61,163 nucleotides of DNA from Candidatus Aminicenantes bacterium (lineage in GTDB: Bacteria; Acidobacteriota; Aminicenantia; Aminicenantales; Saccharicenantaceae): positions 1 through 61,163 of the forward strand of contig JABLWX010000007.1 in assembly GCA_013178315.1 (NCBI GenBank). Direction: 5' to 3'. Shown here in pieces: positions 8,372 through 61,163 of this stretch (position 1 is its first letter; each line of letters begins with the position of its first letter). Below the pieces are notes generated by a model. That model saw only the letters and a list, made by a program, of their open reading frames with translations, did not search any database and had not been told where the DNA came from. A program made the translations under genes and the position numbers.

Positions 8372-8683
8372 GAAATTGCCTTTCAATTTTTTTCAAGACC
8401 TAATTTTAACCGCATTGGCCCGGAATAATCCAGACTCAGGTTTCAAATTCATGCGGCCCGGGTAAGATCGGCTCTTAATTCTGAGCGCCTGGATGTCTGG
8501 ACTCTGAATCCGGCTCTTGATGGTAGCCTGACCCGGGCGCCTCTGCTCTGAACTGGAAGGTGTTGTCTGAAAAGTATTCCCGCGCAGAGGAAAGTGAGAA
8601 TAATAATGAAAAATGGTGCATTGTGGCCGCGATTTTTTGAAACCTCGTCCCGGATGGTTTATATTAAAGAGCGGGAGCGAGAG

Positions 8684-9103
8684 ATGAGAATTGTCCAGGA
8701 AGTAATTACCATTTCAACCCGCGGGCACAATGATATCCAGGACCTGACCCCGGAAGTGGAGCGCAGGCTTGAGGCCAGTGGCCTGAAGGAGGGACAGGCC
8801 CTGGTTTTTGTCCAGGGCTCGACGGCCGGGGTCACCACCATGGAATATGAGCCCGGGCTGGTCCGGGACCTGCCGGAACTCCTGGAAAAACTGGTGCCAT
8901 CAAACCGCAGCTACCATCACGATGAAACCTGGGGCGATGCCAACGGCTTTTCCCACCTGCGGGCTTCGCTCCTCGGGCCCTCGCTCATGGTGCCCTTTGC
9001 CGGGGGCCGGTTGCAGCTGGGCACCTGGCAGCAGATCGTCCTGGTTGATTTTGACAACCGGCCGAGGAGCCGGAATGTCCTTCTGCAGTTCGTGGGAGAA
9101 TAG
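8684..9103 (+). CDS. YjbQ/UPF0047 family (secondary thiamine-phosphate synthase-like)
   Basis: GSTAGVTTMEYEPG, HHDETWGDANGFSHLRASLLG, LGTWQQIVLVDFD. Confidence 0.9.
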   Translation: MRIVQEVITISTRGHNDIQDLTPEVERRLEASGLKEGQALVFVQGSTAGVTTMEYEPGLVRDLPELLEKLVPSNRSYHHDETWGDANGFSHLRASLLGPSLMVPFAGGRLQLGTWQQIVLVDFDNRPRSRNVLLQFVGE

Positions 9104-9198
9104 CCGCCGCTCAAAAATTTTGCCCCGGGCCCGTCCGCGGGGATGATAATCCCGGCCGATGGAGTATAATTAGGTAAGCCAGAAAGAGAAGAGCCACG

Positions 9199-10533: not shown

Positions 10534-10649
10534 GCCCCGGCCGGTCTTGGACTGAAGCGGGGAAGGGCAGTTAGGTTCTGGCAGGGACAGGAAGCCCGCT
10601 TGACCGGTCAGGTCTTCACCCGGCTCAGTCCTTGACAAGGAGGTTGGCG

Positions 10650-11651
10650 GTGCGAGCCATGGTTGTTTCCGGGTTCAAACCCGTTGAGGAAAATCCGTTG
10701 CAACTGCAGGAAGTCGACCGCCCGCATCCCGGGCCCGGCCAAATCCTGATAAAGGTCAATTACTGCGGCGTCTGCCATACCGACCTGCACACGGTGGAGG
10801 GGGAGTTGCCGGAAGTGCCGCTGCCGAGAATTCCAGGGCACCAGGTGGTCGGGGTGGTGGAGCAAAAGGGAGAGGGGGCCGAACTTTTCAGGAAGGGGGA
10901 CCGGGTCGGCGTGGCCTGGTTGTACAGCGCCTGCGGCCACTGTGGCTTCTGCCGCCGGGGGCTGGAGAACCTGTGCCTGGAAGCCAGGTTTACCGGCTAC
11001 CAGGTTGACGGCGGTTATGCCGAGTACCTGGTCGCTCCCGAAGACTTTGCCTACGAGCTGCCCGAAAATTTCCCCGACGAGCAGGCCGCCCCGCTGCTCT
11101 GTGCCGGCATCATCGGCTACCGGGCGCTCCGGCTGAGCCGCATCAAGCCCGGGCAGAAACTGGGGCTGTACGGTTTCGGGGCCTCGGCCCACGTCACCAT
11201 CCAGGTGGCCAGGCACTGGAACTGCCGGGTTTACGTTTTTTCCCGAAGCCAGGAACACCGGCAACACGCCCTGGAACTGGGAGCCTGCTGGGCCAGGAAA
11301 CCCGATGAGCTTCCACCGGAGAAACTGGATTCCGCCATTGTTTTTGCCCCGGCCGGAGAAGTGGCCCGCCTGGCCCTGAGAGCGGTGGACCGCGGCGGGA
11401 CCGTGGCCCTGGCCGGAATATACATGAGCCCGATTCCTGAAATTAATTATGAAAGCGAACTTTACCACGAAAAATGCCTGAAGAGCGTGGCCAACGCCAC
11501 CAGGCAGGACGGAGTCGAGTTCCTGAAGATGGCGGCCGACATCCCCATCCAGACCGAAGTCAAAATTTACCCCCTGGAAGAAGCTAACCGGGCCCTCTAT
11601 GAAGTCAAGCACAGCCTGGTCAACGGGGCGGCCGTTCTTAAAATTGGCTGA
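10650..11651 (+). CDS. Zinc-dependent alcohol dehydrogenase (MDR family)
   Basis: CGVCHTDLH, PGHQVVG, CGHCGFC..NLC, LLCAG, GLYGFGASA; GTG start after AGGAGG. Confidence 0.92.
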   Translation: MRAMVVSGFKPVEENPLQLQEVDRPHPGPGQILIKVNYCGVCHTDLHTVEGELPEVPLPRIPGHQVVGVVEQKGEGAELFRKGDRVGVAWLYSACGHCGFCRRGLENLCLEARFTGYQVDGGYAEYLVAPEDFAYELPENFPDEQAAPLLCAGIIGYRALRLSRIKPGQKLGLYGFGASAHVTIQVARHWNCRVYVFSRSQEHRQHALELGACWARKPDELPPEKLDSAIVFAPAGEVARLALRAVDRGGTVALAGIYMSPIPEINYESELYHEKCLKSVANATRQDGVEFLKMAADIPIQTEVKIYPLEEANRALYEVKHSLVNGAAVLKIG

Positions 11652-11704
11652 GGCCGGTTGAAAAATCTGTCCCGGTAAGATAATATTTAATAGATTTTCG
11701 CTAT

Positions 11705-11778
11705 GCGCCCGTAGCTCAGTTGGATAGAGCGACTGACTACGAATCAGTAGGCCGCAGGTTCGAGCCCTGCCGGGCGCA
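11705..11778 (+). tRNA. tRNA-Arg (ACG); CCA end not encoded
   Basis: Acceptor stem GCGCCCG/CGGGCGC, D arm GCTC/GAGC, anticodon arm ACTGA-CTACGAA-TCAGT, T loop GGTTCGAGCC. Confidence 0.95.
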
Positions 11779-11795
11779 CTCTTCATCTCCGCTTG

Positions 11796-12503
11796 ATGAA
11801 AGCACTTCTTTTAATAGGCCCACCCGGTGCCGGTAAGAGTCCGCTCGGAGATTACCTCCAGGAACAATCCATCGCCGGGAAAAGGTTCTGTCATCTTGAT
11901 TTCGGCCGGGAGCTCCGGGAAATACTCAAGGAGCATTCCGCGGCCGGGTCCGGCAGCCAGGCTGAAAAGGGAGCAGGAAAAAAAGAAACATCAGGGCAGG
12001 AAGGAGAAGCCGGCCTGGCCGCAGCCGGCCATTTCAGCCGGCAGGAACTGGAGCGGATCAGGCAATCGGTGGAAACGGCCAGCCTGTTTGAAGAGGCTGA
12101 CCGGGAGCTGGTCAGAAAAATTGTCCGCCATTTCCTCGAAAAAAACACGATCGGTGAAGACGATATCCTGGTACTTAACGGGTTGCCGCGTCACCGGGCC
12201 CAGCTGGGCTGGCTGGAAGATATTTTGACCATCGCCCTGGTGGTAAGCCTTGACTGTCCCGAGGACGTGGCCGTGAGAAGAATCCTGGCCAACCTCGACG
12301 GGGAACGTCAGGGGCGCGAGGATGACCGGCTGGAGGTCATTGTCCGCCGCTACCGCCTTTACCAGGAAAAGACCGGGCCGCTTCTGGAATATTTCCGCCA
12401 GTCTGAAGTTCCGGTTATAAGCCTGAAGGTCGACCGGGAGACCAGGCCGGAAATCCTCTGGCCGAAGCTCCAGTCTTCTCAGCTGCTGGCTCAGTTAGAT
12501 TGA
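11796..12503 (+). CDS. Divergent adenylate kinase-like NMP kinase
   Basis: P-loop GPPGAGKS, LNGLPR, REDDRLEVIVRRYRLYQEKTGPLLEYF. Confidence 0.75.
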   Translation: MKALLLIGPPGAGKSPLGDYLQEQSIAGKRFCHLDFGRELREILKEHSAAGSGSQAEKGAGKKETSGQEGEAGLAAAGHFSRQELERIRQSVETASLFEEADRELVRKIVRHFLEKNTIGEDDILVLNGLPRHRAQLGWLEDILTIALVVSLDCPEDVAVRRILANLDGERQGREDDRLEVIVRRYRLYQEKTGPLLEYFRQSEVPVISLKVDRETRPEILWPKLQSSQLLAQLD

Positions 12504-12570
12504 GCGCCTCTCCATTACCGCTAATTAATTAAGCCCCGATTGGCTTCCGGCCGAGGCTGCCCGGACTCTA

Positions 12571-12594
12571 ATATATGAATGGTCATTCATATAT
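12571..12594. promoter_or_regulatory. Palindromic operator-like site ATATATGAATG-GT-CATTCATATAT
   Basis: Perfect 11-bp arms; 22/24 identical to the site at 36330-36353. Confidence 0.6.
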
Positions 12595-12796
12595 CAGCCC
12601 CGGGTCTTGCCCCGTGAAATCCCGGCCAGTTCTCTTAGGCCCGCACCGTATCGAGAAGTTATAGCCCGGCCTCAAGAACTGAATGAGTTAAAAAATGATG
12701 ATCGTGGCCCTGAAGTAATTTACGATTATTTTCCGCCAGCCAGCGCCCGGTGAAATTCACCTGTATTTTTTTGGTCTGTGCCGGTCAGGTCCCGGC

Positions 12797-14140
12797 TCAG
12801 CCGGTGAGCTTCCGGGCTTCCAGGTAGAACCGCTTTTCCCAGGCCTCGCCCATGGAGAAAGTCTTGCGGGGCAGGGCCCCGTCCAGGATGACCGTGGGAA
12901 AAAGCTGGCACTTGTCCATGGCCGGAAGGTAAAAACCCAGGTTCCCGGGTTTCTGGCGGCTCAGGTTTAGCAGCGAGTCATCGCCGTGAACGTAATCCAG
13001 GCCGGAAGCTTCCTGCTTTTTCAGGTAATCATCCAGGAAGGCCTGCAAACTGCCCACGGTCAGGTTGTGTTTCGGTTGCAGGAACCTTATGGAGTGGAAG
13101 CTGTTCTGGCCGACCAGTCCGGCTATCTGTTCCTGGTTCCGGCGGGAATTGACCGCCTGTTTCATTTCTTCAAAATCGCGGTGTTCTCGCAGTTCCACCC
13201 GGCCGTTAAAGAACTCCACCAGGTTCGGGACCAGGTTGTCCGGCCGGCGGACTTCGAACAGAACGCGGTGAATCGGCTCGAAGACCAGGGACTCATCGTG
13301 GAGGTTGACCACCTCCACCAGGGCATAACGCAGGGGAGAGTTCCTCAGGTCTTCCGGGTTTCGCGCTGCAGCCTTGGTCCTTTCCCAGATGGTCTTGGCC
13401 GTGGCCAGGGAGTGGTTGCCGTCGCCCACGGCGAACAGCAGCAGGGGAGTCCTGTCCGGCAACCCGTACTTTTTCTGGAATTCCTCCGGGCTGGCCAGGC
13501 GGGACAATCCATCCATGATCATTTTTTCTACTTCGGGCCGGTCGACCAGGAAACCGCGCAGCCGGCCGGAGTTGAACATCAGCTCGAAGTCGTACAGTTT
13601 GCTCAATTCCCGGCTGTGGTCGGCGGCCGGGCCGATGACCAGGTGGGCCGGGTCATCAATAAGAATCATGATGTGAGGGGCCTCGAGGGCCGCTCCTTCT
13701 CTTATCTTCACCCGGGGCGGAATTCTTTCGATGATGGTGCCCTCGGTGGCCCGGATGAGGCTGCTGGCCCTGGGATTGTAATCGTAAGCCTCCAGGTCCA
13801 GGCAGAAGAGAAGTCCTCGCCGCCAGCCATGGGCGGTTTCTCGCTCGACGTAAATCATTCCGGATACCTCCCGGAAAAGCCCGCGGCCTAAGTAGTCCTT
13901 CATGGCGGCCTGGATCCTGGCGATGCGCGCCTCTTTATCCGGAGAGTTCAGGTAAACTTCGGGGTAGATCAGGTGCAGGGTGGACGGGGCTTCCCCGACC
14001 AGCTCTTCCACCCTTTTCCAGTATTCCGGTTCCGAGGTGTACTGGTCGCAGGCAATCACCGACCACTTCTGAAGGTCCAGGCCCTCTGCCGGCAGCAGGA
14101 TTTCCGGGATGGCCATTCCCAGAGAACTGAAAATTTTCAT
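12797..14140 (-). CDS. DUF1015 family protein
   Basis: WSVIACDQYTS, IRATEGTIIERIPPR, FAVGDGNHSLATAK, GALPRKTFSMG. Confidence 0.9.
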   Translation of the reverse strand: MKIFSSLGMAIPEILLPAEGLDLQKWSVIACDQYTSEPEYWKRVEELVGEAPSTLHLIYPEVYLNSPDKEARIARIQAAMKDYLGRGLFREVSGMIYVERETAHGWRRGLLFCLDLEAYDYNPRASSLIRATEGTIIERIPPRVKIREGAALEAPHIMILIDDPAHLVIGPAADHSRELSKLYDFELMFNSGRLRGFLVDRPEVEKMIMDGLSRLASPEEFQKKYGLPDRTPLLLFAVGDGNHSLATAKTIWERTKAAARNPEDLRNSPLRYALVEVVNLHDESLVFEPIHRVLFEVRRPDNLVPNLVEFFNGRVELREHRDFEEMKQAVNSRRNQEQIAGLVGQNSFHSIRFLQPKHNLTVGSLQAFLDDYLKKQEASGLDYVHGDDSLLNLSRQKPGNLGFYLPAMDKCQLFPTVILDGALPRKTFSMGEAWEKRFYLEARKLTG

Positions 14141-51068: not shown

Positions 51069-51144
51069 TCCTCGGTAGCTCAATCGGCAGAGCGGGTGGC
51101 TGTTAACCACTAGGTTGCAGGTTCGAGTCCTGCCCGAGGAGCCA
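51069..51144 (+). tRNA. tRNA-Asn (GTT)
   Basis: Acceptor stem TCCTCGG/CCGAGGA, anticodon loop CTGTTAA, T loop GGTTCGAGTCC, encoded CCA. Confidence 0.96.
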
Positions 51145-51600
51145 TTTTTATTTTTAAACCTCAATATAGCATTACCTCATATCTTTTTTTTAATTGGGCT
51201 CTAGTCTTTTAAATTATTAAAAATCGCGAGAAAATTTAAAGTCTGCTCGTCGTCTTAATTAAGCAAACAAATATTTCCAGTATATGTTCTCGCTGTTTTT
51301 ATATTATTTGACAGCCATACTTAATATCTGTAAATTATTAAAAATTGGTAGTAATGAAACTGTTCCATAATAAGGGCAAAATTAGATTTTTCTTTCTGGC
51401 GTGTTCACTTCAAAATTTAGAAGTTTTGATCATTTATGCAATAAAATATGGACCTCTATCCATTTTATTTAATTAAATGAAAAGCATCAGTTTTATTAAA
51501 AATTTTAATAATTTGGAATGGCTTAACTAAATGATGATATGAACGGAGCTAATTATCATTATAAAGTTTATATTCCTTTTATATCGAAACGGAGGAGATT

Positions 51601-54600
51601 ATGGCCGAGTCAAATCCCTTAACAAAGTTTCAATCCCTGTTACAAGAGCTTTTTCAATTTGATTGTTCTGATTTAGATTTCGGCATATATAGGATAATGA
51701 ATTATAAGCGGGGAGTTATCCAGCGATTCATTGAAAAAGATCTTCCTAATGCTGTTGCTGAAGAATTAAGGCAGGGGGTGCTAGCTGAACAAGCACAGGC
51801 ACAAGAAGCTCTGGTCTCGGCCCGCGATATATTGTTGAAAACGCTGGGTGATAATGCACTGGATGCTGATGGCAATCTTGGTGAACAATTCAAAAATACA
51901 CCTGCAGGCAAAGCCTATCTAAAAGCCCAGGCTAAAGCCAAAGCTTCACGTTCTACGGAGGCCTTGGAAGCTACCATCTATAATCACCTCTATACCTTCT
52001 TCAGCCGCTACTGGCAGGATGGGGACTTTATTTCAAGGCGTCGATATTCTAAGAAGGAGCGCTATGCCATTCCATATAATGGCGAAGAAGTAATGCTTTA
52101 CTGGGCCAACCACGATCAGTACTACATCAAAACAGGCGAATATTTTACCGATTATACATACCAAGCATCCAATGGCGTTACTGTTCATTTCAAACTTAAG
52201 CAAGTAGATTTAGAGCAGAACAACGTAAAAGCGGAGAAGCGTTTCTTTCTGCCTTTGCTTGATGGTATTTCTTGGGATGAAACCTCCCGCACGCTAATAG
52301 TTCCTTTTGAGTTTCGGCCGCTTACTGAGCAGGAGATAATTATATACGGACAGAAAAATCAGCAAGAGACCATCATCTCCAAAGCAGTAATAGATATTCC
52401 GAAGCGCATCAAGGCTATCGAGGTCTTAGCTGCATTGACTGCCGAGCGACAGAAGAGAGAAGATGGCACACCTGTCTCATTACTTGAGCACCATCTAAGA
52501 CAGTACACTCGTCGTAATACAAGCGACTTTTTCATTCATAAGGATCTTATGGGTTTCCTGTCCAGAGAGCTGGATTTTTATCTTAAGAATGAAGTGCTGA
52601 ATCTGGATGAAATTGAAAATGCCGGTGAGTCCTTGAGCGAGGGATGGTTCCAGTTAATGCGTATCATTAAGCGCATAGGACTTCGGATCATTGAATTTTT
52701 GGCTCAAATCGAGGAATTTCAGAAAATGCTCTGGGAAAAGAAGAAATTTGTTACCGAAACCTTTTATATGATTACTATAGGCAACATCCCTGAGGTTTTT
52801 TATCCCGAAATAGTTGCTTGCGATGCCCAGTGGGAGGAATGGAAGTTGTTCTTGAGCCTCAACGAGCTACCTCCCGATATACTTGCTGGAGATTTCCGCA
52901 CTCCGGAAGGGCGTCTTACATTTTTAAAAAACCATTCTACCTTGCCCTTGGACACTCGCCATTTTTCAAAAGATTTCACTGATCGTCTGCTGGCTTCTTT
53001 CGACAATATTGATGATTTGGTTGATGGCTTGCTGGTGCATTCTGAAAACTGGCAGGCGCTTAATCTCCTCAAGGAAAAGTACCGTGAGCAGATAAAGTGC
53101 ATATACATTGATCCGCCATATAATACAGGTAGTGATGAATTTCTTTATCGTGATAACTACAAACATTCTAGTTGGTTGGCGATGATGGAGAATCGGCTTG
53201 AAGCATCTAAATTTCTATTTACAAAAGATATTATTATGTTCATTAGCATCGATGATAACGAACAAAGACGATTAAAAATGCTGTTAGAACACTGTATGGG
53301 AGAACAAAATCTTATTGCCACGATTCCTGTCGTGACTAATCTCAAAGGTAATCAAGACGAGTTTGGTTTTGCAGGAACTCATGAATATGCAGAGGTCTCT
53401 ATTTTTAGCAGAGCAGATGCAAGGTTTGGAAATTTTCCCCTTCAAGATGAAGAAGAACTAGAAGATTGGGAAGAAGATGAGCACGGTTATTATAAGAGAG
53501 GGGCCAACTTGAAAGCTACAGGTATCAACGCACCGCGCTCGAAACGTCCAAATTTATTTTATCCGATTTACATCACGCAGAATGGTGAGATATCAATATC
53601 AAGGACTTCGCCCGCTGATATAGAAATACTTCCAATCACTGGTGGCGAAGAGATGAGCTGGCGATGGAGCAAAGATAAACTTGAGAGAGAAAAGCACAAC
53701 GTTATCGTTGTAAGAGAAGGGAATACAATCTCACTATATAAGAAACAACGGCCTTCAATTGGGGACATGCCAAGTAGCAAACCAAAGTCTATTTTCTATA
53801 AACCTGAATATAGCAGTGGCAACGGAACCGCTCAGATACGTGCCCTTTTTGGAAGCAAAGTGTATTCTTACCCAAAGCCAGTAGAACTTATAAAGGATTA
53901 TCTTTTGGCAGGAAATGCCAGAAGCTGGACGCTCGACTTCTTCGCAGGTTCTGGCACTACTGGGCATGCCGTTATTGGCCTAAACCGTGAAGATGGTGGT
54001 CAGCGGAAGTTTATTCTAGTGGAAATGGCCCGTTATTTTGATACTGTGCTCCTTCCAAGGATTAAAAAAGTGACGTTCACTCCAGAATGGAAGGATGGCA
54101 AGCCTAAGCGTATGGCCACCCCGGAAGAAGCAGCACGCAGCCCCCGCGTAGTAAAGGTAATAAGACTGGAATCATATGAGGACTCACTAAATAATCTGAC
54201 TTTCGATGAAGAGGGGGGACAGAAGGCTTTGGCAATGTTTATGGATGAGTATCTGCTTAATTACATGCTTCGTTGGGAAACCCGAAAGAGTGAGACAATG
54301 CTCGATATTGAGAAATTGCAATCTCCACTTTCGTACAGACTTCGTATCTACCACGATGGAGAAATCAAAGAACGGCCAGTGGACCTTCCTGAAACATTTG
54401 CATATCTTATAGGAATGGATGTAAAAACACGCAGAGTCTATGAAAATTATGGAAAGCATTATATGGTCTACCGTGGGACATTACGGAATGGAAAAACAAT
54501 TGTGGTTATCTGGAGAGAAGTAAAGGATTGGTCTGAAGAAGATTACAGACGAGAACTTGAGTTCATATCTAACCAGAAGATTACCGACGGGGCCGAAGAA

Positions 54601-54690
54601 ATCTATGTAAATGGTGATTCAATCATCCCCGGCGCCCAGTCGCTGGACCCTATCTTCAAACACCGCATGTTTATGGGAGTGGAGGGGTGA
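51601..54690 (+). CDS. Type III R-M N6-adenine methyltransferase (Mod), large form
   Basis: IYIDPPYNTG (about aa 501) precedes LDFFAGSGTTG (about aa 780), the beta-class order; begins DLDFGIYRIMN. Confidence 0.9.
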   Translation: MAESNPLTKFQSLLQELFQFDCSDLDFGIYRIMNYKRGVIQRFIEKDLPNAVAEELRQGVLAEQAQAQEALVSARDILLKTLGDNALDADGNLGEQFKNTPAGKAYLKAQAKAKASRSTEALEATIYNHLYTFFSRYWQDGDFISRRRYSKKERYAIPYNGEEVMLYWANHDQYYIKTGEYFTDYTYQASNGVTVHFKLKQVDLEQNNVKAEKRFFLPLLDGISWDETSRTLIVPFEFRPLTEQEIIIYGQKNQQETIISKAVIDIPKRIKAIEVLAALTAERQKREDGTPVSLLEHHLRQYTRRNTSDFFIHKDLMGFLSRELDFYLKNEVLNLDEIENAGESLSEGWFQLMRIIKRIGLRIIEFLAQIEEFQKMLWEKKKFVTETFYMITIGNIPEVFYPEIVACDAQWEEWKLFLSLNELPPDILAGDFRTPEGRLTFLKNHSTLPLDTRHFSKDFTDRLLASFDNIDDLVDGLLVHSENWQALNLLKEKYREQIKCIYIDPPYNTGSDEFLYRDNYKHSSWLAMMENRLEASKFLFTKDIIMFISIDDNEQRRLKMLLEHCMGEQNLIATIPVVTNLKGNQDEFGFAGTHEYAEVSIFSRADARFGNFPLQDEEELEDWEEDEHGYYKRGANLKATGINAPRSKRPNLFYPIYITQNGEISISRTSPADIEILPITGGEEMSWRWSKDKLEREKHNVIVVREGNTISLYKKQRPSIGDMPSSKPKSIFYKPEYSSGNGTAQIRALFGSKVYSYPKPVELIKDYLLAGNARSWTLDFFAGSGTTGHAVIGLNREDGGQRKFILVEMARYFDTVLLPRIKKVTFTPEWKDGKPKRMATPEEAARSPRVVKVIRLESYEDSLNNLTFDEEGGQKALAMFMDEYLLNYMLRWETRKSETMLDIEKLQSPLSYRLRIYHDGEIKERPVDLPETFAYLIGMDVKTRRVYENYGKHYMVYRGTLRNGKTIVVIWREVKDWSEEDYRRELEFISNQKITDGAEEIYVNGDSIIPGAQSLDPIFKHRMFMGVEG

Positions 54691-54691
54691 G

Positions 54692-57600
54692 ATGCCACGC
54701 CAAGGTCGAACGCTATCCAATCAAAGAAACAGATCAAGTGGCATTCAGCAATATGTCAAACTTGAACATCGATTGGTATTGCTTGCCTGGATAAATAGCC
54801 TTCTTGGCTATGAAACGAATAGAGAGCTTTTGGAAGACTGTAAGTCAGCTGCTGAAGGCTTTGGAGCAGATGGAAATAGCTTTATATATCACCATTTAAT
54901 TGCCCGCGGAGACAAGCTTAAGATAAGCAAAGATAATCTTGCCCGGTATGATGAAAATATTCGTGTTCATTTGGAGAAAATAAACCGCAGTCGGACCGAA
55001 AAGATTACCCTGCGCTATTTCCAGTATCTGGCGGCGCTCTACACAGAAATCATGCTCGACCGCCTGTTCAGATCCAAGGCCCAATTGATAGCTGATTTAA
55101 ATGCTTTTGTAGATGACCGTAACGCGCACCGTCTTCCTTCTGAACCACAAGATGATCCCTTTGTTGAAGATGATCTGATCAAACTGGCCTTCTGGATGGC
55201 TACTGGCAGCGGCAAAACGATTCTTTTTCATCTGAACTATTATCAGTTTCTATACTACAATTATGATCCCTTGGATAACATCATCTTAATCACTCCAAAC
55301 GAGGGCATGACGACTCAACACCTTGCAGAATTGGCCTCTTCTGGAATTCCGGGGCGACGGTTTGAGCTGAACACAAGCAGCTTATGGAGTGGTGGTCAGA
55401 ATGTCATTCAAGTCATTGATATACACAAGTTAGTAGAAGAAAAGAGGGGTGGCGGAGTAAGTGTTCCAGTGGAAGCATTCGAAGGACGGAATCTCATCTT
55501 TGTAGACGAAGGCCACAAGGGCACCGGAGGAGAGGTCTGGCGTAAGTATCGCGATGCGCTGGGGGCGACCGGTTTTACTTTCGAATACAGTGCCACTTTC
55601 GGGCAGGCCCTTACGGCTGCGCGTAATGATCCTCTTACAGCGGAATATGGCAAAGCAATCGTCTTTGATTACTCATATAAATATTTTTATCTTGATGGTT
55701 TTGGCAAGGATTTCCGCATAATTAATATGCCGGAGCAAGTGGATGAGCAAAAAACAGATGTCTTGCTTCTAGGGAATCTACTGTCTTTCTATGAACAGAC
55801 GCGGTTTTATGAGGAACAAAAAAATAATCTTGCCGCGTACAATCTGGAGAAACCGCTCTGGATTTTCGTGGGCAGTACGGTTAATGCAGTTTTTAAGGAG
55901 AACAGACGTCCGTGCAGTGATGTGCTGACAGTGGCGCGTTTTTTTCATCGAGTGCTAAGCGACCAGAACTGGGTAATAGAGACTATTAAAAATATTTTAG
56001 ATGGGAATTCTGGCCTGAAAATTTCTGATCAAGATATTTTTGCCGGCCATTTCCTGTTCTTGCGCGAATTAAATCTTGCTCCAGGACAAATTTTTGAAGA
56101 TATTCTATGGCGCATTTTCCATGTTTCCTCAGGTTCTGGGTTGCACCTGGGGGAGATAAAAAATAGTTCTGGAGAAATTGGATTAAAAGCTGCTAATGCC
56201 GAAAAGTACTTCGGTCTAATTTATATTGGAGATTCTTCGGAATTCAAAAAATTAGTTGAAGAGAATGCACAGGAAATAGTTATTGAACAGGATGCCATTA
56301 TTTCTTCTCTATTCGACCATATAAATGAATCGAGTTCTGACATTAATGTTTTAATAGGAGCAAAAAAATTCATTGAAGGATGGAACTCATGGAGGGTCGC
56401 CAATATGGGATTAATCAATATTGGGCGCCAGGAGGGATCGCAAATAATACAACTTTTTGGCAGAGGGGTGAGGCTTAAAGGAAAAGGCATGAGCCTTAAG
56501 CGTAGCGCTGCCTTATCTGGAAGTCATCCTAGACATATACGAATACTTGAGACACTGAATGTGTTTGGAGTAAGAGCGAAATATATGGGAGAGTTTCGTA
56601 ATCATTTAGAAAAAGAAGGTGTGGAAACGGCTGAACCACTAGAGTTATTGCTTCCCATTAGGATAAACAATGAATTTCTTGATAAGGGATTGGTTATTCC
56701 GCGGCCAAAAATTGGCTTGGACTTTGTATCGGACCAAATGTTCATATTAGAGCCAGATAATACAATTAACATAGTTGTTGATATGTCGACAAAGATTCAA
56801 GTAGTTGAAAGCGATCATTTAGAAGAAAATGGAATTACAAAATTACAGGAAGCAAGAACAGGTATCGAGCAAAAAATACCTGATGAATGCCTTGATCTTG
56901 TAGATTGGGAAAAGGTTTATTGTGATTTGATAGAATTTAAGAACCGTAAAAAGCTAGCTAATTTGGTTGTAAGACCGGAAAGGTTAAGGAAAATTATAAA
57001 GGACCTGAACTATAAGCTCATTGCGGATGAATCAGTCGTAAAACCACAGAAATTTGTGTGTGTGAAACGTCTTCAAGAAGCGGTAACAAACATTCTCCGA
57101 AAATATGCAGAAGCCTTTTATCGTATTAGGAGAGAAAGGTGGGAAGAGAAAGAGGCCCTGGTTTATTACCCGTTGGATACGGCAGATCCCAATTTAAGCT
57201 TAAACAGAGACCGAGTAGGTGAATCGCATGACGGAGCTTATATCTTAAGAGTTCAACGATCAAATGAATCAACAGAATCATTAATAAATGAAGTACAGAG
57301 GCTACTTAAGAATCTTGACCAATTATATACGCAGGATAGCCAGAATGGAGAGAATGTGGGCCGAATATATTTTGATAGGCATCTTTATTTACCTCTATTA
57401 GTTAAACAATCCGATATAATTCAATCCATTCCTCCCGGCTTAAATCTGAGTGAGTATCAGTTTGTACGAGATTTGAAGGAATATTGGGAAAATGAAAAAG
57501 AAAGGCTGTTGAAAGACAAGGATATTTATTTATTACGTAACTTGAGCCGAGGCAGAGGGATTGGCTTTTTTGAAGAGCGAGGTTTCTACCCTGATTTCAT

Positions 57601-57925
57601 ATTATGGATATTAGATAAGAAAGCTGGCCATCAGCGAATCGTATTTGCAGAACCTCATGGCATGATCCATGCCGGGCCATATGATAGAGATGAAAAAGCA
57701 CGGCTGCATGAAAAGTTGGAAGATCTTTCGGTGGTGATAGGCCGGAGAACGGGTAGAAATGGCGTTAGTCTGGATTCATTTATCATATCCGCAACGCCTT
57801 TTGAAAGTCTCAAAAAAATATATGATGATGGCAAATGGGATAGAAACAAGTTCGCTGAAAGACATATTTTATTTCAAGATGCAGGATCTGATTACGTGCC
57901 AAGAATATTAGGCATAAAGAAATAG
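54692..57925 (+). CDS. Type III R-M restriction subunit (Res), SF2 helicase plus nuclease
   Basis: MATGSGKT, VDEGH, YSATF, FIEGWN, IIQLFGRGVRL, C-terminal FYPDFILW..FAEPHG; ATG 1 nt after the mod stop. Confidence 0.88.
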   Translation: MPRQGRTLSNQRNRSSGIQQYVKLEHRLVLLAWINSLLGYETNRELLEDCKSAAEGFGADGNSFIYHHLIARGDKLKISKDNLARYDENIRVHLEKINRSRTEKITLRYFQYLAALYTEIMLDRLFRSKAQLIADLNAFVDDRNAHRLPSEPQDDPFVEDDLIKLAFWMATGSGKTILFHLNYYQFLYYNYDPLDNIILITPNEGMTTQHLAELASSGIPGRRFELNTSSLWSGGQNVIQVIDIHKLVEEKRGGGVSVPVEAFEGRNLIFVDEGHKGTGGEVWRKYRDALGATGFTFEYSATFGQALTAARNDPLTAEYGKAIVFDYSYKYFYLDGFGKDFRIINMPEQVDEQKTDVLLLGNLLSFYEQTRFYEEQKNNLAAYNLEKPLWIFVGSTVNAVFKENRRPCSDVLTVARFFHRVLSDQNWVIETIKNILDGNSGLKISDQDIFAGHFLFLRELNLAPGQIFEDILWRIFHVSSGSGLHLGEIKNSSGEIGLKAANAEKYFGLIYIGDSSEFKKLVEENAQEIVIEQDAIISSLFDHINESSSDINVLIGAKKFIEGWNSWRVANMGLINIGRQEGSQIIQLFGRGVRLKGKGMSLKRSAALSGSHPRHIRILETLNVFGVRAKYMGEFRNHLEKEGVETAEPLELLLPIRINNEFLDKGLVIPRPKIGLDFVSDQMFILEPDNTINIVVDMSTKIQVVESDHLEENGITKLQEARTGIEQKIPDECLDLVDWEKVYCDLIEFKNRKKLANLVVRPERLRKIIKDLNYKLIADESVVKPQKFVCVKRLQEAVTNILRKYAEAFYRIRRERWEEKEALVYYPLDTADPNLSLNRDRVGESHDGAYILRVQRSNESTESLINEVQRLLKNLDQLYTQDSQNGENVGRIYFDRHLYLPLLVKQSDIIQSIPPGLNLSEYQFVRDLKEYWENEKERLLKDKDIYLLRNLSRGRGIGFFEERGFYPDFILWILDKKAGHQRIVFAEPHGMIHAGPYDRDEKARLHEKLEDLSVVIGRRTGRNGVSLDSFIISATPFESLKKIYDDGKWDRNKFAERHILFQDAGSDYVPRILGIKK

Positions 57926-58067
57926 AACTTGGACTTTTTTTATTTATGTACAGAGCCTGTGTTAATTAAATTTTTTAAATTATTTTATTATGTGTTATTT
58001 TCGTTAATATTAGCGATATGGGTTCTATCCTAATAAACACAATAAACTTATTTAAGGGTGATTTATT

Positions 58068-60845
58068 ATGGAAGAGGGGATTGATAAAAACCAATTAATA
58101 AGACACATTATTGAAACCCCAAATCCCTTATCAGAAGAACAAAAGAGCGCCGTTTTATCGAAAAGCAGATATCTAAGAATCGTTGCTGGTGCTGGCACTG
58201 GAAAAACAGAGACAATGACACGTAGGGTAGTTTATTTAATACTATGTGAAAATGCGTTGCCTGGATCAATAGTAGTTTTTACTTTTACTGAAAAGGCAGC
58301 TCAAAGTATAAAAAGTAGAATCTATGAAAGGGTGAGACAATTAGGCGGCGAGGAAAAAAGTGCAGGGCTTGGCGATATGTTCGTTGGGACTATTCACAGC
58401 TTCTGTTTTCATCTATTAGAAGATAAATTCGGGTATGGTAATTTCAGTGCGATTGATAAAAATAAAGAGATGGCTTTCCTAATGCGTGAAGGGTGGAGCC
58501 TTGGATTGGGCTCAAAAGGCAATTATGGAACTAATTGCGAAAGATTTTTAAGGTCTGTTGACGTTGTTTATAATGAACTAATTGATATAAATAAGCTGAG
58601 GGTCCAAGCAGAGTCATTCAGCAAACAGTTTGAAAAATATGAAGCCACTCTAAATCACCATAAATTGATTAATTTTGGACAAATGATCAGCAGAGCGGTC
58701 CATGAGATCGAAAGTAAACCTGATTCGATATCTTATATAAAGCATCTTATAGTTGATGAATACCAAGATATAAATAGAGCCCAAGATAGATTGATAAAAT
58801 TAATTGGCAAGAAGGCAAGCGTATTTATTGTGGGTGACCCTAGGCAGTGTATCTACCAATGGCGAGGATCAGATGAAAAATGCTTTGATGAATTCACATT
58901 AGAATATAGAGAATGCGAGCAAATAACCATACGAGAAAATCGAAGGAGTGTTCCCGAAATTGTAGATGTGGCTAACACTACTGCTGCCTTCTTCGCGCAT
59001 AAATATTATGAACCGTTATTGCCGATTAGGAAAGAGAACGGAAAAGTTGTCTTGTTAAAAGCAGCATGTGCCGAATCAGAAGCCGCCTGGGTAATAAATC
59101 AAATAAAGTTATTAATAAAAATGAATGAAGACCTTAGATTTCGTGACTTTGCAATTTTATTGAGAAGTGTTAAGACATCTGGAAGGATGTTCATCGAAAG
59201 ATGTAAGGAAGAAAGCATTCCATTTATTGTTGGGGGCAATGTTGGCTTGTTTCAAAGAGATGAAGCACAAGCCGTTGGAAGGTTAATCGCTTGGCTTGAT
59301 GAAGATGGGTTTTGGTATGGAGATCAGTTTCAGAAAAAAGAGATTATCAAGGGAGAAAATCTATTAATATCAGGATTAGAAAAATGGAAGATTGCAGTAG
59401 GTGATGAATTAATAGCCCATGATATTGAAGATGAACTTAGAGAATGGAAGACTGATGTTTTTAATGATAGGTATCCTAATTTTTCAGATCTTTATCAAGA
59501 ACTTCTTAGAATATTGGGATTCTTGAAATTAAATCCTGAGAATAAAATGCATGCGGCGCTTATGGCCAACTTAGGTAGGTTTAATACTTTATTGACAGAT
59601 TATGAGACATCGATTCGCTTGGGTGGACAGAAATTAGATTGGAAGGCCAACTTAAAAGGGCTTTGCTGGTTCATGAACTCATATGCGATAGGTTCCTATG
59701 AAGAAAATTATGGTGATGATATAAGAGGCGTTGATGCTGTCCAAATCATGACAGTTCACCAGGCCAAGGGATTGGAATGGCCCGTTGTTTTTGTGCCGTG
59801 TTTAACTGATAAAAGATTTCCCAGTAGCAATACTGGAAAGCAACAAGAATGGTTGTTACCAAGGAATTCAGGGCTTTTTCCGGTTGAAAGATATGAAGGA
59901 AATATCGAGGACGAAAAAAGGCTATTTTATGTGGCAATTACAAGAGCCAGAGATTTACTATGCTTAAGTTACTTCAAAAAAATCGAGATGGCCAGTAAGC
60001 ATAATCAGAGCCATAGTATATTTTTGAGTCCAATAGATAAGACCCTTAACTATGATTCCATATTAGACGATTCAAAAAATATACCCAAAGTAAATATAAT
60101 GCCTGCGAGTGAAAAAGAAGAAATTCAAACGTTTTCTGCCACAGAAATAATCTATTATAGAAGATGCCCATTTATGTATAGGCTCCGTGAAATATTTGGA
60201 TTTCAGCCCGGTCTTGATATTGCATTGGGATTTGGGCGGAGTCTTCATTATTGCCTGAGCTGTGCCATTGATTTAATCAAAACTGAGAAAGATCTTGAAA
60301 AGATGGTAAATAATCTCATAGAAGAAAAATTCCATTTGCCCTTCGCTGGCGGCAACTATCTTGAGATTATGAAAAATAAAGCTAAAAAATTGTTGTATGA
60401 ATTTATTAAACAAAATATAAATGATCTAATGAATATAAAGGAAGTAGAAGCAAGGCTTGAATTTCCAATAGAGAAAGCAACGGTTGCCGGGAAAATAGAT
60501 GCAATAATTAAGGTAGAAGGTGAACGGGAATTGCTAGAAATAAGAGATTATAAGACATCTGATAAAGTCGAGTCATATGAGGATTCAAGCTTACAGCTAC
60601 AGATTTATGCCTTGGGGCTGAGAAAAATGAAAAATAGAGTGGCGGAAGCTTCTATTGCTTATCTTGATAGTTCATCCGATAAAGGCGAAAAGATTAAGGG
60701 TGTGCCGATTAATGATGAAATATTAAATCGCGCTGAAAGAACAGTTAAATCGTGCATCGATGCGATTAGGAATGGTCAATATAATGCGAGGTGCGGTGCC
60801 CATTGTAATAATTGCGATTATAGAACGATATGTCGTTATTCTTAG
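58068..60845 (+). CDS. UvrD/PcrA-like SF1 helicase fused to a PD-(D/E)XK nuclease with an Fe-S cysteine staple
   Basis: AGAGTGKT, DEYQD, VGDPRQCIYQWRG, TVHQAKGLEW, EKRLFYVAITRA; RRCPF, GKIDAI..RDYKTS, QLQIYA, CNNCDYRTIC. Confidence 0.88.
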   Translation: MEEGIDKNQLIRHIIETPNPLSEEQKSAVLSKSRYLRIVAGAGTGKTETMTRRVVYLILCENALPGSIVVFTFTEKAAQSIKSRIYERVRQLGGEEKSAGLGDMFVGTIHSFCFHLLEDKFGYGNFSAIDKNKEMAFLMREGWSLGLGSKGNYGTNCERFLRSVDVVYNELIDINKLRVQAESFSKQFEKYEATLNHHKLINFGQMISRAVHEIESKPDSISYIKHLIVDEYQDINRAQDRLIKLIGKKASVFIVGDPRQCIYQWRGSDEKCFDEFTLEYRECEQITIRENRRSVPEIVDVANTTAAFFAHKYYEPLLPIRKENGKVVLLKAACAESEAAWVINQIKLLIKMNEDLRFRDFAILLRSVKTSGRMFIERCKEESIPFIVGGNVGLFQRDEAQAVGRLIAWLDEDGFWYGDQFQKKEIIKGENLLISGLEKWKIAVGDELIAHDIEDELREWKTDVFNDRYPNFSDLYQELLRILGFLKLNPENKMHAALMANLGRFNTLLTDYETSIRLGGQKLDWKANLKGLCWFMNSYAIGSYEENYGDDIRGVDAVQIMTVHQAKGLEWPVVFVPCLTDKRFPSSNTGKQQEWLLPRNSGLFPVERYEGNIEDEKRLFYVAITRARDLLCLSYFKKIEMASKHNQSHSIFLSPIDKTLNYDSILDDSKNIPKVNIMPASEKEEIQTFSATEIIYYRRCPFMYRLREIFGFQPGLDIALGFGRSLHYCLSCAIDLIKTEKDLEKMVNNLIEEKFHLPFAGGNYLEIMKNKAKKLLYEFIKQNINDLMNIKEVEARLEFPIEKATVAGKIDAIIKVEGERELLEIRDYKTSDKVESYEDSSLQLQIYALGLRKMKNRVAEASIAYLDSSSDKGEKIKGVPINDEILNRAERTVKSCIDAIRNGQYNARCGAHCNNCDYRTICRYS

Positions 60846-60940
60846 AATAAAAGAAATCTAATTATCATTGCAGCTGGCCTAGATTCATGAGTCCTTATCT
60901 AAGAGGCTATGAAATTATGTGTAATAAGTAAGCCCTTAAG

Positions 60941-61163
60941 GGCCATGTCAAGATTCGTTCGCAATTTGGCCATCGCAATCTCTCCATTTTAAGCCTCAGT
61001 TGGCAGCCTGAGCCATCGAACTTTCTAAGACCTGCCTGAACCTCTCCGGCTTGATGTAGGCATAATCATTGGCCCAGTCTTCTGTATACTCCATAAGGTA
61101 CGAAGCAATGAGCCTCAGGTATGAGCTCACCGAAGGAAACACTCCCACCACCCGGCTTCTGCG
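60941..61163 (-). mobile_element. Right end of an IS256-family insertion sequence
   Basis: Transposase C-terminus plus GGCCATGTCAAGATTCGTTCGCAATTT, which resembles IS256-family ends (G-N4-TGTC). Confidence 0.7.
60996..61163 (-). CDS. IS256-family transposase, C-terminal fragment (absent from the ORF track)
   Basis: Manual translation RRSRVVGVFPSVSSYLRLIASYLMEYTEDWANDYAYIKPERFRQVLESSMAQAAN* matches the IS256 R..RVVG.FP...LRL..L.E..E.W pattern. Confidence 0.85.
   Translation of the reverse strand, partial: RRSRVVGVFPSVSSYLRLIASYLMEYTEDWANDYAYIKPERFRQVLESSMAQAAN

What the first reader, a model, noticed from the sequence alone, without database searches (positions are those of the whole stretch)
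51601..60845. Three-gene defence candidate: Type III Mod-Res plus a single-chain helicase-nuclease
Seen: mod and res (1-nt gap) are followed 142 bp later by a co-directional 925-aa UvrD-PD-(D/E)XK gene, and all catalytic motifs appear intact. Known: Type III enzymes need only Mod and Res, make a limited cut, and rely on processive nucleases such as RecBCD to destroy the DNA. Inference: the third gene is a dedicated resection or degradation partner extending R-M cuts, or a backup defence. I do not recognise it as a named system. Caveat: the helicase gene looks more AT-rich than mod and may be an independent arrival.
Basis: partly seen in the sequence, partly recalled or inferred. Interest (0 to 1): 0.7.

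Follow-up and report, generated by a model that had tools for sequence, protein, structure and literature searches.

The report
Type III restriction plus helicase-nuclease partner
A foreign DNA island beside a tRNA gene carries a Type III restriction-modification pair plus a RecB-like helicase-nuclease; this trio recurs across many microbes and was noted computationally in 2017, but nobody has tested what the third gene does.

Summary
They sit in a low-GC island (0.37-0.43 against 0.57 for the host) directly after tRNA-Asn.

The link is not chance. In 80 metagenome loci of this helicase clade, 17 of 27 informative 90%-identity clusters have Mod/Res of this family within three genes. Two gene orders occur: Hel-Mod-Res, often only a few bases apart or overlapping, and Mod-Res-Hel as here. 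Hel, Mod and Res identity matrices correlate (r about 0.82, Mantel p about 5e-4).

It is not new. Hudaiberdiev et al. 2017 (PMC5704561) described this UvrD-Cas4 fusion family and named Type III Mod/Res as its commonest neighbourhood. I found no experiment.

Other branches of the helicase family sit beside OLD/GajA-like, HerA-like, GmrSD-type or Eco57I-like genes. The res relatives closest to the window's mostly lack the helicase. It therefore looks like an exchangeable accessory, not an obligatory subunit.

Best guess, inferred only: it loads on ends made by Res and unwinds and degrades the DNA.

Verdict: new member of a known, uncharacterised association. Interest is moderate.

The parts
51069..51144 (+). 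tRNA-Asn (GTT); left boundary of the low-GC island
   Evidence: ARAGORN. GC falls from about 0.57 to 0.26-0.43 directly after it. Related contigs L001/X2 and X4 also begin inside this tRNA.
51145..51600 (+). AT-rich leader (GC 0.257) with a sigma-70-like site at 51308-51336 and a GGAGGAG ribosome-binding site before mod
   Evidence: The promoter is only a consensus match, and the number of such sites in the region is not above the shuffles.
51601..54690 (+). mod: 1029-aa Type III-like beta-class DNA methyltransferase. It has a 470-aa N-terminal extension with no Pfam family, DPPY at residue 504 and FAGSG at residue 781.
   Evidence: (PDB hits to Type III Mods 7dsu, 6k0w, 4zcf).
53171..54147 (+). 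Variable block inside mod (about residues 524-849, containing the target-recognition region). It is not alignable at the DNA level with the otherwise 89-95% identical relative L001.
   Evidence: blastn of the window against L001. Contigs in runs X2 and X4 skip the same block.
54692..57925 (+). res: 1077-aa Type III-like restriction subunit. It has an SF2 helicase core (GSGKT 172, DEGH 272, SAT 300, GRGVR 590). Its start lies one base after the mod stop.
57587..57658 (+). Putative PD-(D/E)XK endonuclease core of Res: YPDF(966)-x17-E-P-H(989). Lys is replaced by His in this clade.
   Evidence: Alignment of 19 Res homologues and L174 with D-P-K. The structure model is too poor to confirm the fold.
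57926..58067 (+). 142-bp AT-rich spacer (GC 0.225) with an AAGGGTG ribosome-binding site before hel. No terminator-like site was found in it. It is conserved only among close relatives.
58068..60845 (+). hel: 925-aa single-chain SF1 (UvrD/PcrA-type) helicase fused to a Cas4/AddB-type nuclease, a member of the UvrD-Cas4 fusion family
   Evidence: AF2 model has pLDDT 86.8. Foldseek matches UvrD/PcrA/Rep, and AddA, RecB and AdnB over the full length.
60129..60836 (+). Nuclease domain of Hel (residues 688-923): D811, D827-Y-K829, Q843xxxY847, and Cys700/913/916/922 as presumed 4Fe-4S ligands
   Evidence: PF12705 E 2e-27 and Cas4 hits. These residues are invariant in 22 homologues.
60846..60940 (+). 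End of the block shared with relative L001; right boundary of the conserved three-gene unit
   Evidence: blastn homology stops at 60940. Loose ends at 60941 in other runs.
60996..61163 (-). 3' end of a probable IS256/Mutator-family transposase gene, cut by the window end. It is not part of the system.
   Evidence: Translation. Weak PF00872 hit, E 0.009, below threshold. Higher and uneven depth in the source run.

Best explanation
The region is a horizontally acquired cassette inserted after tRNA-Asn. It holds a long-form Type III-like restriction-modification pair (Mod marks host DNA; Res is an SF2 motor with a C-terminal endonuclease) and an accessory helicase-nuclease of the UvrD-Cas4 fusion family.

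Shown here:
- All three genes are intact.
- They move as one block.
- The helicase family is strongly and repeatedly linked to Type III Mod/Res genes in two gene orders and across deep divergence.

Inferred mechanism: Mod/Res recognise and cut unmethylated invading DNA. The helicase-nuclease is built like one chain of AddAB, RecBCD or AdnAB. It loads on the ends or nicks that Res creates, unwinds 3'-5' and degrades the DNA with its Fe-S nuclease domain. A single limited cut becomes irreversible destruction, independent of the host's RecBCD/AddAB, which phages often inhibit.

The same helicase clade sits beside other DNA-cutting modules (OLD/GajA-like, GmrSD-HNH, Eco57I-like, HerA-linked). It is therefore best seen as an exchangeable downstream end-processing module, not a Type III-specific subunit.
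For: - Identity of the three genes and intact motifs.
- Single-chain RecB/AddA/AdnB-like fold.
- Enrichment: 17 of 27 informative dereplicated clusters have Mod/Res within three genes.
- Hel-Mod-Res spacing of a few bases, or an overlap, in many loci, as estimated from the tblastn hits. In the annotated plasmids of Athalassotoga and Priestia the gap is a 20-bp overlap and 21 bp.
- The second order, Mod-Res-Hel, occurs in the window, L001 (98% Hel), L173 (86%), L086/L089 (63%) and L118/L174 (61% Hel but only 35% Res).
- Congruent divergence: Hel-Res r 0.82, Hel-Mod r 0.82, Mantel p about 5e-4.
- Distant fusion relatives (25-28% identity) also precede Type III genes, including classical-size ones.
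- The three genes are one 95%-identical block in a different downstream context.
- Partners of other branches are DNA-cutting or translocating defence modules.
- Independent literature: PMC5704561.
- A contig from an RNA-Seq-labelled library spans the res-hel junction. This is only weak evidence.
Against: - No experiment exists for any member.
- The res relatives closest to the window's (62-65% identity) have no helicase in the four contexts read, although L162/L163 end about 0.4-0.65 kb after res. Mod/Res evidently work without it.
- In the window's gene order there is a 94-142-bp AT-rich gap before hel, and hel is more AT-rich than mod. That is compatible with separate regulation or later capture.
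- Some family members lie in non-defence or unconserved contexts, for example after ligA in L088 and after an oxidoreductase in L128.
- PMC5704561 notes that most genomes with the fusion also encode RecB, so it does not simply replace a missing RecBCD.
- A single motor with a single nuclease would degrade only one strand unless it acts as a dimer.
Confidence: 0.5

Rival explanations
1. Independent neighbour. The helicase-nuclease is a free-standing defence or repair gene that accumulates in defence islands. It travels with mod-res only because the genes are transferred together, and there is no biochemical coupling.
For: - The Hel clade is found with many different neighbours and sometimes with none that is conserved.
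- The closest Res relatives lack it.
- There is a 142-bp gap and a lower GC in the window.
- L001 places the trio next to a TerY-P system, which is typical defence-island clustering.
Against: - In a whole large clade Hel and Mod appear only a few bases apart or overlapping, and all three genes share a strand.
- The linkage persists through pairwise Hel identities below 50% and in two orders.
- It survives replacement of the Res lineage (L174: Hel 61%, Res 35%).
- Random island neighbours are not conserved like this.
Confidence: 0.2
2. Self-protection or repair partner. Type III systems methylate only one strand and risk cutting host DNA. The RecB-like enzyme processes such self-inflicted breaks for RecA-dependent repair, which lowers the cost of carrying the system.
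For: - The fold and motifs are those of recombinational end-processing enzymes.
- PMC5704561 suggests a role analogous to the RecB/AddB nuclease domains in recombination.
- One relative lies after ligA.
Against: - No Chi-recognition or RecA-loading element can be identified.
- Most hosts reportedly already have RecB.
- The other partners of the clade (OLD, GmrSD-HNH) are not methylation-based systems with the same self-cutting risk.
Confidence: 0.15
3. Gabija-like trigger. Hel senses DNA ends made by Res and then hydrolyses nucleotides or degrades DNA indiscriminately, giving an abortive-infection backup when restriction fails.
For: - The best PADLOC hits are GajB models (E 1e-59).
- A sister branch sits directly before OLD/GajA-like genes (L083, L107, L110, L157).
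Against: - The GajB similarity is generic UvrD-core similarity, limited to residues 21-354 for the top hit.
- In PDB sequence hits GajB matches far more weakly than PcrA/UvrD.
- GajB has no nuclease domain.
- No GajA lies in the window.
Confidence: 0.1
4. Assembly artefact. The low-GC island is wrongly joined to this chromosome through the shared tRNA-Asn sequence. The trio is then real but belongs to another organism.
For: - In the source run the island is a separate 9850-bp unitig that starts inside the tRNA.
- The tRNA and the right-hand IS are high-depth repeats.
Against: - The left flank and the island have the same depth (11.4 and 11.5).
- Relatives in other samples also start at the same tRNA-Asn position, as expected for a tRNA-linked island.
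- Either way, the three-gene unit itself is unaffected.
Confidence: 0.05

Closest known systems
UvrD-Cas4 fusion / Type III Mod-Res neighbourhood (Hudaiberdiev et al. 2017, BMC Evol Biol 17:232, PMC5704561)
   Same: Same protein architecture: an SF1 UvrD helicase plus a pfam12705 Cas4-like nuclease with four Cys. Same neighbourhood: Type III Mod and Res. That paper already calls this the commonest context of the family and predicts an ancillary defence role.
   Different: The paper is comparative genomics only. It gives no name, no gene-order analysis and no experiment. New here are the two gene orders, the co-divergence test, and the other partners (OLD/GajA-like, HerA-like, GmrSD-HNH, Eco57I-like). 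The paper's second context (Dcm+Vsr) did not appear in my sample.
Classical Type III R-M (EcoP15I, EcoP1I)
   Same: mod lies directly before res. The Mod core is homologous to solved Type III Mods. Res has SF2 helicase motifs and a C-terminal PD-(D/E)XK-like motif.
   Different: Both proteins are much longer than their classical counterparts (Mod 1029 against 644 aa for EcoP15I Mod; Res 1077 aa). They have N-terminal extensions with no known family. Res has no detectable sequence match to any solved structure, including EcoP15I Res. His replaces the catalytic Lys. A third helicase-nuclease gene is attached.
AddAB / RecBCD / AdnAB end-processing helicase-nucleases
   Same: A UvrD-like SF1 motor fused to a RecB-family nuclease. 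The Fe-S cysteines are as in AddB and Cas4. Foldseek matches AddA, RecB and AdnB over the full length.
   Different: It is a single chain of 925 aa with no partner subunit encoded nearby. No Chi-recognition element is identifiable. It lies in a mobile defence cassette, not in a core repair locus.
Gabija (GajA OLD-family nuclease + GajB UvrD-like helicase)
   Same: A UvrD-like helicase encoded beside a DNA-cutting defence enzyme. GajB models are the best PADLOC hits. Sister-branch relatives sit directly before OLD/GajA-like genes.
   Different: There is no GajA in the window. GajB (about 500 aa) lacks the nuclease domain. The sequence similarity is limited to the shared helicase core.
Other defence effectors paired with an accessory end-processing nuclease: long-A pAgo + ACE1 (PMC12094033) and type III Druantia DruE-DruH (bioRxiv 10.64898/2026.05.13.724313)
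   Same: The logic is the same: a Cas4-family or helicase-nuclease enzyme cooperates with a separate recognition or cutting component to process invader DNA. I read only the abstracts.
   Different: The partner proteins and families differ. No homology was tested beyond the Cas4-like domain, so these are analogies only.
BREX type 3, DISARM and MANTIS (Gao_RL)
   Same: These are methyltransferase-plus-helicase defence loci. Relatives of this Mod/Res occur next to a DrmD-like SNF2 gene on enterobacterial plasmids and inside a BREX locus in Hydrogenophilus.
   Different: The window has no BrxC, PglZ, DrmA/B/C, DUF499 or PLD nuclease. The window's Mod and Res matched no BREX, DISARM or Gao_RL model in PADLOC. 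MANTIS MtsD is a PLD-SF2 enzyme.

Membership tests
Type III restriction-modification | Mod: beta-class N6A/N4C methyltransferase (motif IV DPPY before motif I FxGxG), homologous to Type III Mods | tested here: met
   PF01555 E 1e-25. PADLOC MTase_III E 8e-173. PDB hits 7dsu, 6k0w and 4zcf Mod. DPPY at 504 and FAGSG at 781.
Type III restriction-modification | Res: SF2 helicase-type ATPase motifs | tested here: met
   PF04851 E 2e-7. PADLOC REase_III E 9e-153. GSGKT, DEGH, SAT and GRGVR are conserved.
Type III restriction-modification | Res: C-terminal PD-(D/E)XK endonuclease | tested here: inconclusive
   A conserved YPDF-x17-(E/D)-P-(H/K) motif is present, but this clade has His, not Lys. The AF2 model has pLDDT 56, too poor to confirm the fold.
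Type III restriction-modification | mod immediately upstream of res in one transcription unit | tested here: met
   1-nt gap, with the ribosome-binding site inside the mod 3' end.
Type III restriction-modification | Detectable relationship of Res to characterised Type III Res (EcoP15I/EcoP1I) | tested here: not met
   phmmer against all PDB chains found no hit at E 0.01. The assignment rests on the Pfam ResIII and REBASE-derived PADLOC models and on gene context.
Type III restriction-modification | Hemimethylation of an asymmetric site; ATP-dependent cleavage needing two inversely oriented sites | not testable with these tools
   Needs methylome and cleavage assays.
UvrD-Cas4 fusion family (PMC5704561) | SF1 UvrD helicase and pfam12705 Cas4-like nuclease in one polypeptide | tested here: met
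   PF00580 E 2e-47, PF13361 E 2e-39, PF12705 E 2e-27, Cas4 models. Confident model.
UvrD-Cas4 fusion family (PMC5704561) | Four conserved cysteines (Fe-S cluster) and RecB-type catalytic residues | tested here: met
   C700, C913, C916, C922, D811, D827, K829, Q843 and Y847 are invariant in 22 homologues.
UvrD-Cas4 fusion family (PMC5704561) | Neighbourhood of Type III Mod and Res | tested here: met
   Met in the window itself, and in 17 of 27 informative clusters.
Gabija | GajA (OLD-family ATPase + TOPRIM nuclease) encoded next to the helicase | tested here: not met
   The island has only mod, res and hel. An OLD-like neighbour is seen only in sister-branch loci.
AddAB / RecBCD / AdnAB | Multi-subunit enzyme: a second helicase/nuclease or Chi-recognition subunit encoded alongside | tested here: not met
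   No such gene lies in the island or is conserved next to Hel in related loci.
BREX type 3 / DISARM | PglZ + BrxC (BREX), or DrmA + DrmB (DISARM), in the locus | tested here: not met
   Absent from the window. Mod and Res have no PADLOC hits to these systems.

The most novel reading that the evidence does not exclude
The UvrD-Cas4 helicase-nuclease is a general plug-in 'executioner'. It physically docks onto unrelated DNA-cutting sensors: Type III Res, OLD/GajA-like, GmrSD-HNH and HerA-linked modules. In the large Hel-Mod-Res clade it has become an obligatory third subunit, so those loci form a distinct three-component class of ATP-dependent restriction enzyme. In that class cutting by Res is coupled directly to processive degradation that does not depend on RecBCD.
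Probability: 0.25. Interest if true: 0.65.

Novelty: new member of a known kind. Interest (0 to 1): 0.4.

Why it matters
Type III enzymes make one limited cut. From general knowledge, killing the invader then depends on host exonucleases that many phages inhibit.

A helicase-nuclease encoded with the system could make restriction self-sufficient. That would explain why this fusion family keeps being recruited next to very different DNA-cutting defence modules.

The association has been in the literature since 2017 with no experiment. The window offers a compact, fully intact three-gene cassette. Close natural variants exist: one with a swapped specificity region in mod, and mod-res relatives that lack the helicase. 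Together they form a ready-made comparison set for testing what the third gene adds.

Tried and rejected
1. Genome-collection scan with the full-length helicase alignment. The patterns chosen were generic UvrD motifs, so most of the 80 loci were distant helicases. Only L002-L005 were from the close clade. I repeated the scan on metagenomes with a clade-specific 91-aa segment, which worked.
2. Idea that Res lacks a nuclease and Hel supplies it in trans. Rejected: a conserved PD...(E/D)P(H/K) motif is present in Res whether or not Hel is linked.
3. Idea that Mod/Res are really PglXI/BrxHII of BREX type 3, prompted by L167. Rejected:
   - In PADLOC the window's Res matches only the REase_III model, whereas BrxHI|BrxHII models do match the plasmid SNF2 protein.
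   - In L167 BrxC is only its N-terminal half, and a 66-aa Helicase_C fragment follows Res. The cassette therefore looks inserted into a BREX locus.
4. MANTIS/Gao_RL as the named system. Rejected: its components differ (DUF499, DUF3870, PLD-SF2).
5. AF2 model of Res from 30 homologues of 60-65% identity. pLDDT was 56 and pTM 0.38, which is unusable, so I did no fold search on it.
6. Search for att-like direct repeats of the tRNA end, and for a terminator between res and hel. Nothing convincing.
7. Intergenic res-hel alignment. Conserved only among close relatives, with no shared element.
8. RNA evidence for co-transcription. One RNA-Seq-labelled metagenome contig spans the junction, but depth is flat and DNA carry-over cannot be excluded.
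9. Host taxonomy was not pursued. The window carries dnaK, dnaJ, infB and recN, so it is a bacterial chromosome from a subsurface metagenome.
Full report
WHAT IS THERE

The region holds three co-directional, uninterrupted ORFs:
- 51601-54690 (1029 aa)
- 54692-57925 (1077 aa from the ATG that follows the mod stop by one base)
- 58068-60845 (925 aa)

The first protein is a beta-class DNA methyltransferase.
- It matches PF01555 and PADLOC MTase_III (E 8e-173).
- Its core matches solved Type III Mod subunits 7dsu, 6k0w and 4zcf.
- It has DPPY at residue 504 and FAGSG at residue 781.

The second protein matches Pfam ResIII weakly and the PADLOC REase_III model strongly (E 9e-153).
- It has the SF2 motifs GSGKT, DEGH, SAT and GRGVR.
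- It has a conserved C-terminal YPDF-x17-E-P-H motif.
- In other clades the last residue is Lys (D-P-K), so this looks like a PD-(D/E)XK core with a Lys-to-His change.
- Res has no sequence match to any solved structure.
- My AF2 model of it was too poor to use (pLDDT 56).

Both proteins carry N-terminal extensions with no Pfam family. The pair is thus 'Type III-like, long form'. It is not a close relative of EcoP15I.

The third protein is a UvrD/PcrA-type SF1 helicase fused to a Cas4/AddB-type nuclease.
- All helicase motifs and the nuclease residues D811, D827, K829 and QxxxY are invariant across 22 homologues of 47-63% identity.
- Four cysteines (700, 913, 916, 922) are invariant in the same set.
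- A confident model (pLDDT 86.8, pTM 0.87) matches UvrD, PcrA and Rep for the motor.
- It matches AddA, RecB and AdnB over the full length.

SETTING

The rest of the window is ordinary bacterial chromosome (dnaK, dnaJ, a sigma factor, infB, recN) at GC 0.57.
- GC drops to 0.26-0.43 immediately after tRNA-Asn (51069-51144).
- Similarity to the closest relative ends at 60940.
- After that comes the 3' end of a probable IS256/Mutator-type transposase gene on the other strand.
- The island holds nothing but the three genes.

All three are foreign to the host. However, the decline begins in the second half of res (0.43 then 0.38), so it does not mark hel as a separate arrival.

The source is a subsurface metagenome. 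In that run the island is one 9850-bp unitig of depth 11.5, joined to a left flank of depth 11.4 through the tRNA. The host assignment is therefore likely but rests on a repeat.

IS THE TRIO MORE THAN A CHANCE NEIGHBOURHOOD?

The helicase has a well-defined family.
- Thousands of word-sharing hits were found, the best 120 all about 900-940 aa and 47-100% identical. They come from Poribacteria, Syntrophaceae, Thermodesulfobacteriota, Alphaproteobacteria and Methanosarcinales, among others.
- The C-terminal half alone finds 248 clusters at E below 1e-30 among 1.84 billion representatives.

A scan of metagenome contigs with a clade-specific segment gave 80 loci. I then ran tblastn, ORF clustering and a neighbour-joining tree. 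These show three things.

(a) A large clade (Hel 44-49% identical to the window's) has the order Hel-Mod-Res on one strand.
- By the tblastn-based estimates, the Hel-Mod gap is often 3-17 bases or an overlap.
- The same order is annotated on plasmids of Athalassotoga saccharophila (Hel 42%, Mod 41%, Res 40%).
- It is also annotated on plasmids of Priestia megaterium (Hel 25%, Res 35%).

(b) A second clade, which contains the window, has Mod-Res-Hel with a 94-142-bp gap.

| Locus | Hel identity | Res identity |
|---|---|---|
| L001 | 98% | 95% |
| L173 | 86% | 89% |
| L086/L089 | 63% | 65% |
| L118/L174 | 61% | 35% |

(c) The remaining branches (50-57% identity) lack Mod/Res of this family. Their neighbours are listed under 'What else the helicase pairs with'.

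After dereplication at 90% identity, 17 of 27 informative clusters have Mod/Res within three genes. By contrast, among the 72 loci of more distant UvrD-like helicases none has a Res match. Two have a Mod-like match. Those two turned out to be distant fusion proteins followed by classical-size Type III-type genes: Mod and Res in L016, Mod in L015.

For 17 dereplicated trios the pairwise identity matrices correlate.

| Pair | r |
|---|---|
| Hel-Res | 0.82 |
| Hel-Mod | 0.82 |
| Mod-Res | 0.96 |

The Mantel p is about 5e-4 for each. The three genes have therefore diverged together over long periods, with occasional swaps of Res (L137, L174).

The window and L001 share the whole unit at 89-95% DNA identity but differ downstream. 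The window has an IS; L001 has a TerY-P system. The one exception is a 977-bp block inside mod that has been replaced. This is the usual signature of specificity switching in an active R-M system.

WHAT ELSE THE HELICASE PAIRS WITH

In the 50-57% branches the immediate co-directional neighbours are:
- an OLD/GajA-like ATPase-TOPRIM nuclease (L083, L107, L110, L157)
- HerA-like ATPases (L085, L090, L109, L130)
- an Eco57I-like methyltransferase (L090)
- GmrSD-HNH (L124, L131)
- a classical-size ResIII plus N6_N4 methyltransferase (L097)
- an unknown 414-aa protein (L087, L099, L100, L105)

A Dam-type methyltransferase-HerA-unknown operon lies divergently upstream of Hel in 8 dereplicated clusters of the Hel-Mod-Res clade. 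In L116 it is co-directional with Hel and no Mod/Res is present.

A few contexts are not defence-like: after ligA in L088 and after an oxidoreductase in L128.

THE CONVERSE

Res has a much larger family. Essentially all 8000 scored candidates pass E 1e-10, and the top 120 are all 59-65% identical.

The four contexts I read for these close relatives have no helicase-nuclease:
- Mod-Res-DUF488
- Mod-MNT-HepT-Res (twice; in L162/L163 the contigs end about 0.4-0.65 kb after res)
- a cassette lying inside a BREX locus

On plasmids, 3 of 25 records with a family member have the fusion. Of the rest I read three. An E. coli plasmid has a DrmD-like SNF2 gene upstream of Mod; Res on the other enterobacterial plasmids is equally diverged (33.9% identity for most) and covers the same residues. 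One Halobacterium plasmid has an AAA ATPase there, and a Natronosalvus plasmid has neither.

This Mod/Res family therefore works without Hel and accepts various third genes.

WHAT IS KNOWN

Hudaiberdiev et al. 2017 (PMC5704561) describe exactly this.
- The largest branch of pfam12705 is a monophyletic UvrD-Cas4-like fusion.
- A second context is Dcm+Vsr.
- They predict an ancillary role in several defence pathways.
- They note that most host genomes also have RecB.

The term 'UvrD-Cas4' occurs in no other paper of the library. My other searches found no experimental study. PADLOC has no system model for the trio.

MANTIS/Gao_RL, BREX-related systems, DISARM and Gabija are different systems.

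HOW IT MOST LIKELY WORKS

Shown here:
- an intact Type III-like pair
- an intact single-chain RecB/AddA-like helicase-nuclease
- conserved linkage between them

Inferred:
- Mod/Res provide sequence and methylation discrimination and the first cut.
- Hel engages the resulting ends or nicks, translocates 3'-5' and degrades DNA through its Fe-S nuclease domain.
- This makes the damage irreversible without relying on host RecBCD/AddAB.

What points this way is that all of the clade's recurrent partners are DNA-cutting or DNA-translocating defence modules. I put this at about 0.5.

Rivals are listed with their refutation tests:
- an independent island neighbour (0.2)
- a repair or self-protection role (0.15)
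- a Gabija-like end-triggered abortive mechanism (0.1)
- mis-assembly of the host junction (0.05), which would not affect the trio itself

VERDICT

This is a new member of a known but uncharacterised association. Interest is moderate (0.4). The value lies in a clean, intact cassette with natural comparison variants for the first functional test.

Noticed in passing
L167 (Hydrogenophilus thermoluteolus BSRY01000003.1), 3451-13621: A Mod-Res pair whose Res is 63% identical to the window's. It lies between the N-terminal half of a BrxC (552 aa, matching profile positions up to about 602 of 1231) and a full PglZ. A 66-aa Helicase_C fragment follows Res. It looks like a Type III-like cassette that replaced the middle of a BREX locus.
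   Followed up: partly
L170 (E. coli plasmid pEC316_2, NZ_CP018955.1), 1122-10874: A conserved four-gene cluster: HTH regulator, DrmD-like SNF2 protein (PADLOC DrmD E 2.5e-196), 1047-aa methyltransferase and Res-family helicase (34% identical to the window's Res). Res on about 14 other enterobacterial plasmids gives near-identical matches; their neighbourhoods were not read. A different third helicase occupies the position that Hel has elsewhere.
   Followed up: partly
L119 4376-8488 (minus strand), and the same arrangement in L091, L093, L111, L112, L121, L123, L126, L127, L129, L137; L116 2245-6550: An operon of a Dam-type (D12) methyltransferase, a HerA-like ATPase (DUF87) and an unknown 436-aa protein with no family. 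It lies divergently next to Hel-Mod-Res. In L116 it is co-directional with Hel and there is no Mod/Res. It may be another restriction-like module that uses the same helicase-nuclease.
   Followed up: partly
L083, L107, L110, L157 (gene directly after Hel); L159 (upstream): A sister branch of the helicase-nuclease is followed by an OLD/GajA-like ATPase-TOPRIM nuclease. These are Gabija-like pairs in which the helicase carries an extra Cas4-like nuclease domain.
   Followed up: partly
L162/L163 7360-8001; L166 7367-7997; L086 3536-5314; L091, L112, L114 between Hel and Mod: Small defence modules are inserted inside the operon. An MNT-HepT toxin-antitoxin pair sits between mod and res. A GmrSD-type (DUF262) Type IV enzyme sits between mod and res or between hel and mod. 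An EVE-domain protein often follows res.
   Followed up: partly
window 57650-57658 (Res residues 987-989): The presumed catalytic Lys of the Res PD-(D/E)XK motif is His (E-P-H) throughout the window's clade and in several others. Other clades keep D-P-K. The change does not track presence or absence of Hel.
   Followed up: partly
window 53171-54147 against L001 2064-2908: The central block of mod is replaced between two otherwise 89-95% identical cassettes, which suggests a specificity switch. In L001 mod is split into 583-aa and 358-aa ORFs, so that copy may be inactive or mis-assembled.
   Followed up: partly
L001 10233-13988: Directly downstream of the 98%-identical hel lies a TerY-P triad (TerY E 1e-107, PP2C phosphatase, Ser/Thr kinase). 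In that genome the trio is therefore part of a larger defence island. In the window an IS fragment takes that place.
   Followed up: partly
window 60996-61163 (minus strand): The C-terminal 55 codons of a probable IS256/Mutator-family transposase (PF00872 E 0.009, below threshold). Depth in the source run is 2-6 times that of the island, so it is a repeat that ends the assembly.
   Followed up: partly
L088 3-4708: One member of the helicase-nuclease clade lies directly after an NAD-dependent DNA ligase gene, reminiscent of the pcrA-ligA pair of Firmicutes. This hints that some members have a housekeeping repair role.
   Followed up: no
L172 (Halobacterium sp. DL1 plasmid CP007061.1), 695-11183: An AAA ATPase-Mod-Res cluster (Res 40% identical to the window's), with a divergently transcribed 687-aa UvrD-type helicase that lacks the nuclease domain.
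   Followed up: no
L016 6992-16556 (uncultured Clostridia): A distant fusion relative (28% identity, 896 aa) is followed, after a 12-bp gap, by classical-size Type III genes (Mod 544 aa, Res 739 aa). It is preceded by a MobL relaxase, so the trio lies on a mobilisable element.
   Followed up: partly
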